DNA of 64,000 nucleotides from Escherichia coli (lineage in GTDB: Bacteria; Pseudomonadota; Gammaproteobacteria; Enterobacterales; Enterobacteriaceae), in NCBI RefSeq assembly GCF_051903065.1, contig NZ_CP178438.1; one strand, given 5' to 3'. A program made the position numbers. Positions 25,201 to 28,200 of this stretch are shown here, piece by piece. The stretch's first letter is position 1. The number at the start of each line of letters is the position of its first letter.

Positions 25201-28200
25201 GCTGCACAACAGCACTCGCCCGTCGATATCCCAGGAATGAATGGTCCGCGGGCGCGGATACTCCGTTGCCAGTTCGCCGTAGACATCATCTTCAAAAATC
25301 ACAATATCATGACGCTGAGCGAGAGAGAGAACGGCCCGTTTGCGCGCGTCCGGCATAATAAATCCCAGCGGATTATTACAGTTTGGCACCAGAATGATGC
25401 CTTTAATCGGCCACTGTTCCAGCGCCAGCTCCAGCGCTTCAACGCTGATGCCAGTTTCTGGATCGGTTGGGATTTCAATCACTTTCACGCCCATGCCGCG
25501 CAGCATCTGCATTGAACCGTAATAACAGGGGGATTCGACCGCGACAATATCGCCCGGTTTACACACCGCCATTAACGCCATCGACATCGAGTTATGGCAG
25601 CCGCTGGTGATGATGATGTCATCGGCGGTGACCACCGAGCCGCTGTCGAGCATCAGGCGGGCAATCTGCTCTCGCAATACCCGCTGACCGGCTAACAAGT
25701 CATAACCGAGAACGGTTTGCAGATTATGCTGTACCACCCGGCTTAGCTCCCGCCAGAGTGGTTTCAGGCTGGGCGTTTCGACATCCGGTGTGCTTTTGCT
25801 TAACGGAACAATGGAACTGTCGCTATGCGCCTCCAGCATATCCAGCACCTGATCCCACTGGGTAATTTCCACCGGGCGTTGCACCGGACGCGTCATCGGC
25901 GGCACTGGCGGTTGGGCTTTACGTTGTGCGACAAAATAACCCGAACGCGGCTGCGGAGTGATGAGCTTCATCGTCTCCAGCGTCTGATACGCCTGCTGCA
26001 CGGTGCTGATGCTGACGCCGTGCTCCTGACTTAAGCTGCGCACCGACGGCAATTTCTCCCCGTGACGATACAGCCCTTGCTCAATCCGCTCGGCAAGCAG
26101 AGTTGCCAGATGTTGATAACGCGTCATGCTGTATTCCTTATTTGGACCATACAGAGAGAAAAACCGGTACAGATGAGGCTAAAAAACCGGATGCAGATGC
26201 TGTTTTAACCTGTCTGTATGTTAAATAAAACTAATATTTGCATCTGTATTGTGAACTGCCAGAAGACGGATGATGAAGCCTCTGAAAGATGAGGAGGCAG
26301 CAGATGGAATTTCACGAAAACAAAGCCAAAACGCCGTTTATCAGACTTGTACAACTCTGGCAGGCGGTGAGGCGTTGGCGGCGGCAAATGCAGGCCCGAC
26401 GGGTGTTACAGCAGATGAGTGATGAACGGTTGAGGGATATCGGGTTACGCAGGGAGGATGTGGAGTGAGGGGGGAAATTCCCCTTCCCGTGTGGGGAAGG
26501 GGAGAGAAACTTAGCGTGGCGTTTTGCTACTAATCACCCCAATAAATTCCTGCACCTGCTTTTGTTTACGCACCGATAGCTTGCACACCTTTCGCAGCGA
26601 CTGCATCAGTTCGCTCTCTTCGATGGCGGGTGGTTGGGCGGTGAGGACAATACAGCCTTCCATCACTTTGACATCTACCGCCGTGCCAGTGGCAAAACCG
26701 GCGGCTTCCAGCCACTGACCTTTCAGGGTGATGGCGGGAATACGGCTGTAATCCGGGTAGCGGCTCGCATAACTCACGGTTAATTGACGGTTATTTGCCG
26801 GGGAGACTTCTGCTTCGAACGGTTGTGCAATAGAATGCGTGTCAGTCATAACTGCTATTCCTTGAAAATAGTGATTGTGATGAGCGGTGCGGGTGTGTTG
26901 GCGCACATCCGCACCGCGCTAAATACCTGGATATATCATCAGTAAATACAGGGAAAGTCCAGCTAAAAATAGAAAATAATAAAAGCGTTACTGGAAAGAT
27001 CTGGAAGAGAAATTAACGTTAATTCAGAATTGCCGGATAACAAAGTGTATCCGGCCTTCATAATTAATTTAAAGCACTCATATGGTGTTCTTTAAAATTC
27101 TCTGCCTGTGCCAGCACACCCATATAAACATCATCATTCGCTACTGGCGGGAACTTATGCTTGTGTAGAAGCAGAATAAGTTCAACTTTCAGTTTCGCTT
27201 TAATATCATCGCGTTTACTCCAGTCAGGATATTTCGATGTGTTGTCAACCACGCTTTTCATCTCTTTTGCCAGTGACAGCATTTTTTCATCGTCATAGGT
27301 GAACTGATATTTATCGCGCATATGAGCAAGAATGTCGAAAAACGCTTTTTCTTCAATATCAATACCTAAATCGGCCCAGGTGCCCATTTCGGTTTTAATA
27401 TCATAGATAATATCGGTCATTTCCTGACTGAATGTATCGAATTCTTCACCGTTGAGTACATCATCTTCTCGCCGCTCATTATAACGATCTATAATCGCCT
27501 GGAAGCGGCGGGTGAAGTTAATCCCTTGCAACTGGTTCACTTTCTTGAAGTCGCTGATCGCTTTTTCCAGTAATTTTTGTAATAACTGGATCTTCGTTGC
27601 CGGAAGTTTGATCTTGTTAATTCGCGCCAGATAATCTTCGTCAAAAATATCGATGGATTCCGCTTTTTTATCGCCAAGAAAATAAATTTCTTCTACGCCA
27701 TCAGCTTTTAGCGCTTCTGCAATCATTTCACGAACGCGTGCATTCATCTGGGTGACATCCGGTGCGTCACCTTTCGTCAGTTTGAAAACAATTGAACGAA
27801 CAGCAAGATAATAGTGAATATAGTCACGTTCTGTCTGTGATAATGCTTCGCTGCCGCAGCAGACGTCGTAGGCGGCTTTCATGCGTTTAACCAGTCCCAT
27901 AAACCGACGTTCAACTTTCTGGGTACGCAGAACGAATTCCGCCGCGCGGTTGAGGCAGGATAATTGCGCTTGTGGCTCACCACTAAAATAATCCCGACTG
28001 TCAAATTCGTAAAAGACTTGCCCCAACAAATCGAGATGGTTTTTAACTTCTATTACCGATTGCTGAATATCTTCAAAGTTGGTGGCATCAATGCGGGAAT
28101 ACATTGCCAGTGCCTGGTTCATCTGACTTTTAATGCCGATGTAGTCCACCACTAACCCTTTGCTTTTGCCTTCCAGTTTACGGTTAACGCGAGAAATAGT

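What the first reader, a model, noticed from the sequence alone, without database searches (positions are those of the whole stretch)
26128..26303. Reiterated CAGATG/CATCTG motifs in the yjiR/yjiS divergent promoter: candidate MocR-type operator
The 176-bp region between divergent yjiR (a MocR-family regulator) and yjiS contains TACAGATG, GCAGATGC, TCTGTATG and CATCTGTATTG in both orientations. MocR regulators typically bind direct or inverted repeats in exactly such divergent regions.
Basis: inference. Interest (0 to 1): 0.25.

Follow-up and report, generated by a model that had tools for sequence, protein, structure and literature searches.

The report
Conserved YjiR operator boxes, yjiR–yjiS
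The short DNA between the regulator gene yjiR and the small-protein gene yjiS carries five to six copies of one conserved 8–10-base box at fixed spacing, which is almost certainly where YjiR binds; this was already predicted by computer in 2016 and has never been tested.

Summary
All four quoted strings are at the stated coordinates in the 176-bp yjiR/yjiS spacer (26128-26303).

The repeated unit is off-register, though. The conserved box is C(C/A)(A/G)TACAGAT, not CAGATG. Two strong copies point towards yjiS (26147-56, 26165-74) and two towards yjiR (26212-21, 26242-51).

- **Conservation:** in 34 non-redundant enterobacterial spacers the box cores are 98-100% conserved. Fourfold-degenerate sites of yjiR show only a 62% majority base, and none is invariant.
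- **Spacing:** 18/45/30 bp between exact copies in 43 of the 57 related loci scanned; the 14 others fit it, with one core changed or an extra copy. No other such cluster occurs in 353 kb of flanks or in the 64-kb window.
- **The box follows the regulator:** YjiR-like MocR genes at 40-59% identity carry TACAG boxes, mostly in the same layout, even when the divergent gene is EamA or PhzF instead of DUF1127.

A MocR-type operator is therefore well supported. Binding, promoter positions and the sign of regulation remain inferred.

A "YjiR – Enterobacteriales" regulog covering b4340 and its COG5457 target was published in 2016. The finding is correct but low in novelty, with modest interest.

The parts
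24715..26127 (-). yjiR, a MocR-type regulator (GntR wHTH domain plus aminotransferase-like effector domain, 470 aa)
   Evidence: ORF. Pfam GntR 5.8e-16 and Aminotran_1_2 1.4e-38. It hits MocR-like NCBIfam models (PdxR, YczR, EhuR, MocR, GabR) but falls below every equivalog cut-off. The SFSK...PGxRxGW motif aligns with the same motif in PLP aminotransferase PH0207.
26128..26136 (-). Box 0 (possible). GCTGTATTC on the plus strand reads ATACAGC on the yjiR strand and abuts the yjiR start codon.
   Evidence: CTGTAT is invariant in 34 of 34 non-redundant spacers. It is not kept in this form in distant homologues. It could instead reflect a constraint on the translation-initiation region.
26147..26156 (+). 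Box 1, CCATACAGAG (family consensus CCATACAGAT)
   Evidence: PWM score 12.7 bits. The core is 98% conserved. It lies 18 bp from box 2 wherever both cores are exact (46 of 57 loci).
26165..26174 (+). Box 2, CGGTACAGAT (family consensus CCAGTACAGAT)
   Evidence: It is also present as AACCAGTACAGATG in the 59%-identity homologue L065.
26189..26198 (+). Box 3, a weak copy: GGATGCAGAT (T-N-CAGA-T)
   Evidence: Majority-base fraction is only 0.84 in enterics. It is a perfect GATACAGATA at the same 24-bp offset in the 50%-identity homologue L062.
26159..26206 (.). Three A/T tracts about 22 bp apart (AAAAA 26159-63, AAAAAA 26181-86, TTTT 26203-06). The conserved GTTTTA block (26203-08) starts in the last one and runs 2 bp past the stated end.
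   Evidence: Read directly. Their role in DNA bending is inferred.
26212..26221 (-). Box 4. GTCTGTATGT on the plus strand reads ACATACAGAC (family consensus ACATACAGAT).
   Evidence: PWM score 12.3 bits. The core is 99.5% conserved. It lies 45 bp from box 2 and 30 bp from box 5.
26220..26241 (.). Conserved AT-rich block between boxes 4 and 5 (GTTAAATAAAAG..TTTTTGA). It probably holds the -10 elements of one or both divergent promoters.
   Evidence: Conservation. Shimada et al. 2014 (PMC3946193) found an RpoD-holoenzyme SELEX peak in this spacer. They guessed TTAACC-15-TAAAAG for yjiS and TTCACA-19-TTTTAT for yjiR. These map to 26205/26226 and 26250/26225. No transcription start data were obtained.
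26242..26251 (-). Box 5. ATCTGTATTG on the plus strand reads CAATACAGAT. This is the best copy.
   Evidence: PWM score 17.3 bits, the top hit in the 64-kb window. The core is 99% conserved. The 30-31 bp spacing to box 4 is kept in homologues down to 40% identity.
26269..26274 (+). Conserved GA-N-N-AT hexamer (GATGAT here, GAAGAT in most species), an alternative -10 candidate for yjiS
   Evidence: This is inference only.
26304..26468 (+). yjiS, a 54-aa DUF1127 small protein and the presumed regulated target. Its Shine-Dalgarno sequence GAGGAGG is at 26291-97.
   Evidence: Pfam DUF1127 2.8e-12. It sits as a divergent partner of yjiR, with a 175-182 bp spacer, in 56 related loci.

Best explanation
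The yjiR-yjiS spacer is a multi-box operator for the adjacent MocR-type regulator YjiR.

Layout. Five or six copies of the box C(C/A)(A/G)TACAGAT sit at fixed distances. Boxes 1, 2 and the weak box 3 point towards yjiS. Boxes 4 and 5 point towards yjiR. A possible box 0 lies at the yjiR start codon.

Proposed mechanism. YjiR is a dimer with two wHTH heads, and each dimer occupies a pair of boxes. The pair most likely to be the primary site is box 4 plus box 5. They are direct repeats 30 bp apart, roughly three helical turns, and this spacing is kept even in homologues at 40% identity. They bracket the conserved AT-rich block that probably contains the -10 elements of both divergent promoters. 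A second dimer would use boxes 1/2 (18 bp apart) or 2/3 (24 bp apart). A/T tracts about 22 bp apart would help the DNA bend around the complex.

Proposed outcome. YjiR autoregulates yjiR and controls yjiS in response to an unknown PLP-linked amino compound. I favour repression of both promoters without the signal and joint de-repression with it.

Shown here: the boxes, their conservation and geometry, and their association with YjiR-like genes. Inferred: binding by YjiR, stoichiometry, promoter positions, the sign of regulation and the effector.
For: - The regulator is of MocR type.
- The divergent yjiR/yjiS pair with a 175-182 bp spacer is found in 56 related loci from about 15 enterobacterial genera.
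- Box cores are 98-100% conserved. Fourfold-degenerate sites of yjiR show a 62% majority base, with 0 of 99 invariant. Non-box spacer columns show 72%.
- Spacing between exact box copies is 18/45/30 bp in 43 of 57 loci. The other 14 are compatible, with one core changed or an extra copy. No other cluster occurs in 353 kb of flanks or in the window.
- The six K-12 versus window differences all avoid the box cores.
- Salmonella Poona has the same array.
- Distant YjiR-like MocR genes (L062 50%, L065 59%, L071 41%, L070 40%, L072 42%, L067 43% with the variant core AACAG) have the same core. Several share the layout forward, forward, (forward), reverse, reverse, and the two reverse boxes are 30-31 bp apart in L062, L065, L070, L071 and L067 (25 bp in L072). 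Their divergent genes are DUF1127, EamA or PhzF.
- Published comparative genomics gives a YjiR regulog with a COG5457 target. It also reports that MocR motifs typically have 2-4 direct or inverted boxes with a TGT core (PMC5320631).
- For repression: RNA polymerase holoenzyme alone binds this spacer in vitro, a 'constitutive promoter' (PMC3946193). Salmonella yjiS is silent in LB (PMC11707872). yjiR is induced in vivo (PMC6550539).
Against: - There are no binding data for YjiR, and no paper was found with any.
- Transcription start sites are unknown, and consensus scans give no clear sigma-70 promoter. Repression versus GabR/PdxR-style activation is therefore open.
- Box 3 is weak in enterics.
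- Box 0 may be conserved for translational reasons.
- Box 1 is missing in L065 and degenerate in L057.
- The RegPrecise site sequences could not be retrieved, so I cannot confirm that the published sites are these boxes.
Confidence: 0.8

Rival explanations
1. The boxes, or the other conserved blocks GTTTTA and GTTAAA-AAAAG, are sites for a different regulator. Examples are SsrB as proposed in Salmonella, or a PhoP- or ArcA-like factor. YjiR would then be irrelevant to them.
For: The Salmonella YjiS paper reports a putative SsrB motif about 50 bp upstream of the yjiS start site, and reduced yjiS expression in an ssrB mutant (PMC11707872). Conserved non-box blocks do exist and could host additional factors.
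Against: The boxes are conserved in genera that lack SsrA/B, E. coli included. The TACAG core travels with YjiR-like MocR genes even when the divergent gene is EamA or PhzF. A five-fold reiteration with both direct and inverted symmetry is typical of MocR motifs (PMC5320631). There is no LexA-type CTGT-N8-ACAG site in the spacer.
Confidence: 0.08
2. The conserved elements are simply core promoter hexamers and UP-like A/T tracts of two overlapping divergent promoters, not operator sites.
For: The best conserved -10-like hexamers on the plus strand (TATGTT at 26217, TATTGT at 26247) lie inside boxes 4 and 5. An RpoD holoenzyme SELEX peak falls in this spacer.
Against: The same 8-10-mer recurs five times in both orientations, including boxes 1 and 2 far from any AT-rich block. 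No pairing of -35 and -10 hexamers scores well. The core is shared with distant MocR loci whose promoters differ.
Confidence: 0.05
3. The inverted copies (box 1 with box 5, box 2 with box 4) form an RNA secondary structure in a long yjiR or yjiS leader.
For: RNAalifold pairs exactly these boxes.
Against: The consensus energy is only -6.8 kcal/mol, and the covariation term is +0.4, meaning none. The pairs are invariant, so they are uninformative. Pairing does not explain the direct-repeat relations. There is no Rfam match in the spacer.
Confidence: 0.04
4. The repeats are a chance recurrence of a short word in an AT-rich spacer.
For: Within the single sequence, a 4-copy hexamer arises in 1.4% of shuffles. 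TACAGAT overall is not enriched in the window: 5 matches against 4.35 expected.
Against: Cross-species conservation and invariant spacing argue against chance.
Confidence: 0.02

Closest known systems
RegPrecise 'YjiR - Enterobacteriales' regulog (Suvorova & Rodionov 2016, Microb Genom, PMC5320631)
   Same: It covers the same regulator (E. coli b4340 and its orthologues in Citrobacter, Enterobacter, Klebsiella, Pectobacterium and Serratia). It predicts the same target, the COG5457/DUF1127 gene. It used the same kind of evidence, phylogenetic footprinting.
   Different: The paper's text and supplement give no site sequences. I could not check that the deposited motif equals the TACAGAT boxes, their number or their spacing. 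The prediction was never tested, and the DUF1127/YjiS papers I searched do not mention it.
GabR operator of Bacillus subtilis (gabR-gabT divergent region)
   Same: Both involve a MocR regulator and a divergent regulator/target pair. Both have direct repeats several helical turns apart. The GabR half-site ATACCA resembles ATACAG. The GabR structure (4N0B) matches YjiR at E = 1.8e-21. The repeat sequence and its 34-bp gap are from my own knowledge of Belitsky 2004. The repeat type is stated in PMC5320631.
   Different: YjiR is only distantly related: 24% identity according to PMC6550539, and far below the NCBIfam GabR cut-off. Here there are five or six boxes of mixed orientation with 18/24/21/30 bp spacing. 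The target is a 54-aa protein, not an aminotransferase operon.
PdxR operators (Bacillus clausii, Corynebacterium glutamicum, Listeria)
   Same: Both show mixed direct and inverted repeats in the pdxR-pdxST spacer. In PdxR, the PLP state changes which repeats are preferred (PMC5320631 introduction). The best NCBIfam hit of YjiR is PdxR, at 266.9 bits. A chain with five PDB entries (7PQ9, 7ZLA, 7ZN5, 7ZPA, 7ZTH), deposited only as 'PLP-dependent aminotransferase family protein', matches YjiR at 2.2e-20. That these are Bacillus clausii PdxR with DNA complexes is from my own recollection.
   Different: The score is below the PdxR equivalog cut-off of 320, so YjiR is not a PdxR. The target is unrelated to vitamin B6 synthesis. 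There are more boxes here.

Membership tests
MocR-type transcription factor operator | An adjacent gene encodes a MocR-subfamily regulator (GntR wHTH domain plus fold-type-I aminotransferase-like domain) | tested here: met
   Pfam GntR and Aminotran_1_2. MocR-like NCBIfam hits. GabR and a second full-length MocR-type chain (7PQ9) among the solved relatives.
MocR-type transcription factor operator | Two to four (rarely more) short boxes in direct and/or inverted orientation, one to three helical turns apart | tested here: met
   Five or six boxes. Orientations along the plus strand are: reverse (box 0), forward, forward, forward (boxes 1-3), reverse, reverse (boxes 4-5). Spacing between boxes 1 to 5 is 18/24/21/30 bp. 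The criterion is as described in PMC5320631. The box number is at the high end.
MocR-type transcription factor operator | A TGT/TGG core, as in other GntR-family half-sites | tested here: met
   The box reads ATCTGTAT / ATACAGAT, with the TGT (ACA) triplet invariant or nearly so in boxes 1, 2, 4 and 5. The criterion is from PMC5320631.
MocR-type transcription factor operator | Boxes conserved in orthologous upstream regions and co-distributed with the regulator | tested here: met
   for orthologues. for distant homologues with other target genes.
MocR-type transcription factor operator | Physical, sequence-specific binding by the cognate regulator, and an effect on transcription | not testable with these tools
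   No EMSA, footprint, ChIP or SELEX data for YjiR were found in the searched literature.
PdxR / GabR / EhuR / PtsJ equivalogs (named MocR regulators) | Protein score above the curated NCBIfam equivalog cut-off | tested here: not met
   PdxR 266.9 against 320. GabR 145.3 against 600. EhuR 198.9 against 480. PtsJ 120.6 against 573. YjiR belongs to its own orthologous group.
LexA SOS box | CTGT-N8-ACAG palindrome | tested here: not met
   The window has only two matches, at 10205 and 57347. There is none in the spacer.
Known structured RNA element | An Rfam match, or covariation-supported helices | tested here: not met
   No Rfam hit near its family's gathering score lies in 26128-26303. RNAalifold shows no covariation.

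The most novel reading that the evidence does not exclude
YjiR and YjiS form a dedicated sensor-output module conserved from Enterobacteriaceae to Pseudomonas. In this reading, two or three YjiR dimers wrap the six-box, A-tract-phased array into a higher-order complex. That complex clamps both divergent promoters and switches box pairs when a PLP-linked metabolite binds, as PdxR does. YjiR, rather than or in addition to SsrB, would then drive the strong intracellular induction of the anti-virulence small protein YjiS in Salmonella. This would link DUF1127 proteins to amino-compound sensing. No paper in the searched library holds both terms.
Probability: 0.3. Interest if true: 0.5.

Novelty: already known. 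Interest (0 to 1): 0.25.

Why it matters
YjiR is one of the remaining uncharacterised E. coli transcription factors. YjiS is a DUF1127 small protein that restrains Salmonella virulence in macrophages and is strongly induced inside host cells. The YjiS paper proposes SsrB as the regulator, and I found no mention in it of the MocR gene next door.

A precise box map gives a ready design for testing whether YjiR is the dedicated regulator. It specifies coordinates, consensus, spacing, and which pair is most conserved. That is enough to design EMSA or footprint probes, box mutants and reporter fusions, and to begin searching for the effector. It does not change any concept. It is a textbook MocR arrangement that comparative genomics had already flagged.

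Tried and rejected
- **Sigma-70 and terminator scan of 25900-26560:** no hits. A conservation-weighted -10/-35 scan on both strands gave no convincing promoter, so promoter positions are left open.
- **Transcription start data:** I looked for E. coli or Salmonella start sites in the YjiS papers. None was given in the text.
- **RegPrecise site sequences:** I looked in the supplement of PMC5320631. Only the regulator and target tables are held.
- **RNA readings:** Rfam found nothing credible in the spacer. RNAalifold showed no covariation.
- **Short GC-rich hairpin between boxes 2 and 3:** it looked like it covaried by eye. The mean best stem is 3.09 bp against 2.75 bp in shuffles, and it is absent in E. 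coli and Citrobacter. I did not accept it as a feature.
- **LexA box:** absent.
- **Natural experiment in E. coli strain PAR (hit H20):** the deletion removes yjiR, the spacer and the start of yjiS together, so it is uninformative.
- **PWM hit inside yjiR at 24948 (13.7 bits):** not conserved in orthologues, so it is chance.
- **Distant homologues L063 (44%) and L064 (43%):** L063 has only one clear ATCTGTAT box plus a degenerate second copy, and its divergent small ORF has no DUF1127 hit on record. L064 has no box at all.
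Full report
**Locus.** The window is an Escherichia chromosome segment. 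It is 100% identical over this stretch to E. coli strain A16. The stretch is present in 3739 of 5426 complete E. coli genomes. yjiR (24715-26127, minus strand) encodes a 470-aa protein. It has a GntR wHTH domain and a class I/II aminotransferase domain. It hits all MocR-like NCBIfam models but passes none of their equivalog cut-offs. Its SFSK...PGLRVGW segment aligns with the same motif in the PLP aminotransferase PH0207. GabR and a second full-length MocR-type chain (7PQ9) are among its solved relatives. yjiS (26304-26468, plus strand) is a 54-aa DUF1127 protein.

**Observation.** Taken alone the repetition is only mildly unusual: a 4-copy hexamer appears in 1.4% of dinucleotide shuffles. The most enriched word is TACAGA/TCTGTA rather than CAGATG, with 4 copies here against 17 in 64 kb.

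**Comparative evidence.**
- A scan of one genome per species returned 59 loci.
- 56 of these carry the divergent yjiR/yjiS pair. They include Escherichia, Citrobacter, Klebsiella, Kluyvera, Leclercia, Lelliottia, Mangrovibacter, Shimwellia and other genera. YjiR identity ranges from 69% to 99% (one locus, L055, scores 45% on its best segment).
- In all 56 the spacer is 175-182 bp long.
- In 34 non-redundant spacers the mean pairwise identity is 69%, yet discrete blocks are nearly invariant.
- Aligned on one another, these blocks give a single box, C(C/A)(A/G)TACAGAT.

| Box | Coordinates | Direction | Note |
|---|---|---|---|
| 0 | 26128-36 | towards yjiR | possible; CTGTAT invariant, abuts the yjiR start codon |
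| 1 | 26147-56 | towards yjiS | strong |
| 2 | 26165-74 | towards yjiS | strong |
| 4 | 26212-21 | towards yjiR | strong |
| 5 | 26242-51 | towards yjiR | strongest |

- Majority-base fractions are 0.98-1.00 for boxes 0, 1, 2, 4 and 5, and 0.84 for box 3.
- Non-box spacer columns show 0.72. The 99 fourfold-degenerate sites of yjiR show 0.62, and none of those is invariant.
- Spacing between exact hexamers is 18/45/30 bp in 43 of 57 loci. The remaining 14 differ only by one degenerate core or an extra copy.
- No other cluster exists in 353 kb of flanking DNA or in the 64-kb window.
- The six K-12 versus window differences in the spacer all fall outside the box cores.
- A Salmonella Poona locus has the same array.

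**Does the box belong to YjiR?** I fetched the genomic context of more distant YjiR-like proteins from a 50%-clustered library.

| Locus | Identity to YjiR | Divergent gene | Boxes |
|---|---|---|---|
| L062 | 50% | DUF1127 | forward TACAG at offsets 16, 34, 58; reverse at about 79 and 110; spacing 18/24/21/31, and box 3 is a perfect copy |
| L065 | 59% | DUF1127 | boxes 2-5, with 30 bp between boxes 4 and 5 |
| L071 | 41% | not on the contig | two forward, two reverse, 31 bp between the reverse pair |
| L070 | 40% | EamA | two reverse boxes, 31 bp apart |
| L072 | 42% | PhzF | one forward box and two reverse boxes 25 bp apart |
| L067 | 43% | EamA | same core |
| L067 | 43% | EamA | variant core AACAG/CTGTT, reverse boxes 30 bp apart |

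The box therefore follows the regulator, not the target gene. This is the strongest computational argument available that YjiR is the binding protein.

**Literature.**
- Suvorova & Rodionov 2016 reconstructed MocR regulons by the same logic. Their Table S1b lists 'YjiR - Enterobacteriales' (b4340, CKO_03450, Ent638_0494, ECA0227, KPN_04760, Spro_1440) with COG5457 as the target. It lists further YjiR regulogs in Pseudomonadaceae and Oceanospirillales.
- The same paper states that MocR motifs usually have two to four direct or inverted boxes with a TGT/TGG core.
- The site sequences are only in RegPrecise, which I could not reach.
- I found no experimental work on YjiR binding.
- yjiR was found as an in-vivo-induced gene in EHEC in a mouse RIVET screen, with no colonisation defect on deletion (PMC6550539).
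- Salmonella yjiS is silent in LB and induced in SPI-2 medium and inside host cells. The authors propose SsrB as the regulator, and my searches of the paper found no mention of a MocR or GntR regulator (PMC11707872).
- No paper in the library holds both 'MocR' and 'DUF1127'.

**Mechanism.** Shown here: a conserved, fixed-geometry array of one box type beside a MocR gene. Inferred: YjiR dimers, each with two wHTH heads, occupy pairs of boxes.
- The box 4/5 pair is a direct repeat 30 bp apart. Its spacing persists in homologues down to 40% identity, so it is my candidate primary site.
- This pair brackets the conserved AT-rich block 26220-41.
- Shimada et al. 2014 found an RpoD-holoenzyme SELEX peak in this spacer. 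Their guessed -10 hexamers for both genes fall in that block, at 26226 for yjiS and 26225 for yjiR.
- RNA polymerase alone binds here, and yjiS is silent in rich medium. I therefore lean towards YjiR repressing both promoters, with joint de-repression by an unknown PLP-linked effector.
- A GabR/PdxR-like scheme, with activation of the target plus autorepression, is not excluded. My promoter scans were inconclusive.
- A/T tracts lie about 22 bp apart at 26159-63, 26181-86, 26203-06 and 26223-30. They suggest DNA bending around a multi-dimer complex. This is inference only.

**Rivals.**
- A different regulator: disfavoured, because the box follows the MocR genes.
- Pure promoter elements: they do not explain five copies in two orientations.
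- RNA structure: no covariation, and only -6.8 kcal/mol consensus energy.
- Chance: excluded by conservation.
- There is no LexA box and no credible Rfam family match in the spacer.

**Verdict.** The motif register should be corrected to TACAGAT and the box count raised to five or six. The idea is a published in-silico prediction that still awaits an experiment. Novelty is low and interest modest. The practical value is a precise design for testing YjiR control of the virulence-linked small protein YjiS.

Noticed in passing
window 26511-26920: symE (an endoribonuclease toxin; the best NCBIfam match covers residues 20-129 of the 131-aa ORF) lies convergent to and immediately downstream of yjiS. 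Its antisense SymR RNA is at 26844-26920, plus strand (Rfam 91.7 bits). In K-12 yjiT follows yjiS instead, so this strain has a different immigration-control-region layout.
   Followed up: partly
window 26468-26505: There are two overlapping GC-rich palindromes (GGGGGGAAATTCCCC and CCCCTTCCCGTGTGGGGAAGGGG) between the convergent yjiS and symE. This may be a bidirectional terminator. It lacks a T-run, so the terminator scan missed it.
   Followed up: no
window 27064-30339: A 1091-aa ORF on the minus strand next to symE looks from its sequence like a type I restriction enzyme R subunit. Strain PAR carries a type I restriction pseudogene fragment at the equivalent position. It may be a variant hsd system.
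   Followed up: no
window 23529-24473: An intact 314-aa Rpn-family (YhgA-like, PF04754) recombination-promoting nuclease gene lies upstream of yjiR. The K-12 copy is annotated as a pseudogene with an internal stop.
   Followed up: no
window 26174-26193 and the same columns in L009, L034, L037, L039, L041, L042: The variable stretch between boxes 2 and 3 has a GC-rich / A-tract / GC-rich composition. In about a third of species it forms a 4-5 bp inverted repeat whose arms differ between species. It is not significant overall (mean stem 3.09 bp against 2.75 bp in shuffles) and is absent in E. coli.
   Followed up: yes
window 26159-26240: A/T tracts recur about every 22 bp (26159-63, 26181-86, 26203-06, 26223-30). 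Each strong box is followed 2-6 bp later by an A-tract on its own strand (ATACAGAT-N2-6-AAAAC). This suggests a longer bipartite unit or phased bending.
   Followed up: partly
L060 (Salmonella Poona) 910-1481: In this Salmonella locus a ccdA/ccdB toxin-antitoxin pair lies just beyond yjiS. This shows again that the DNA flanking the yjiR-yjiS module is variable while the module itself is kept.
   Followed up: no
PMC11707872, Fig. 3C text: In Salmonella carrying yjiS with its native promoter on a medium-copy plasmid, the chromosomal neighbours SL4450, SL4451 and SL4453 were called differentially expressed. The authors attributed this to polar effects. Extra plasmid-borne reads, or titration of a regulator by the plasmid-borne operator, are alternative explanations.
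   Followed up: no
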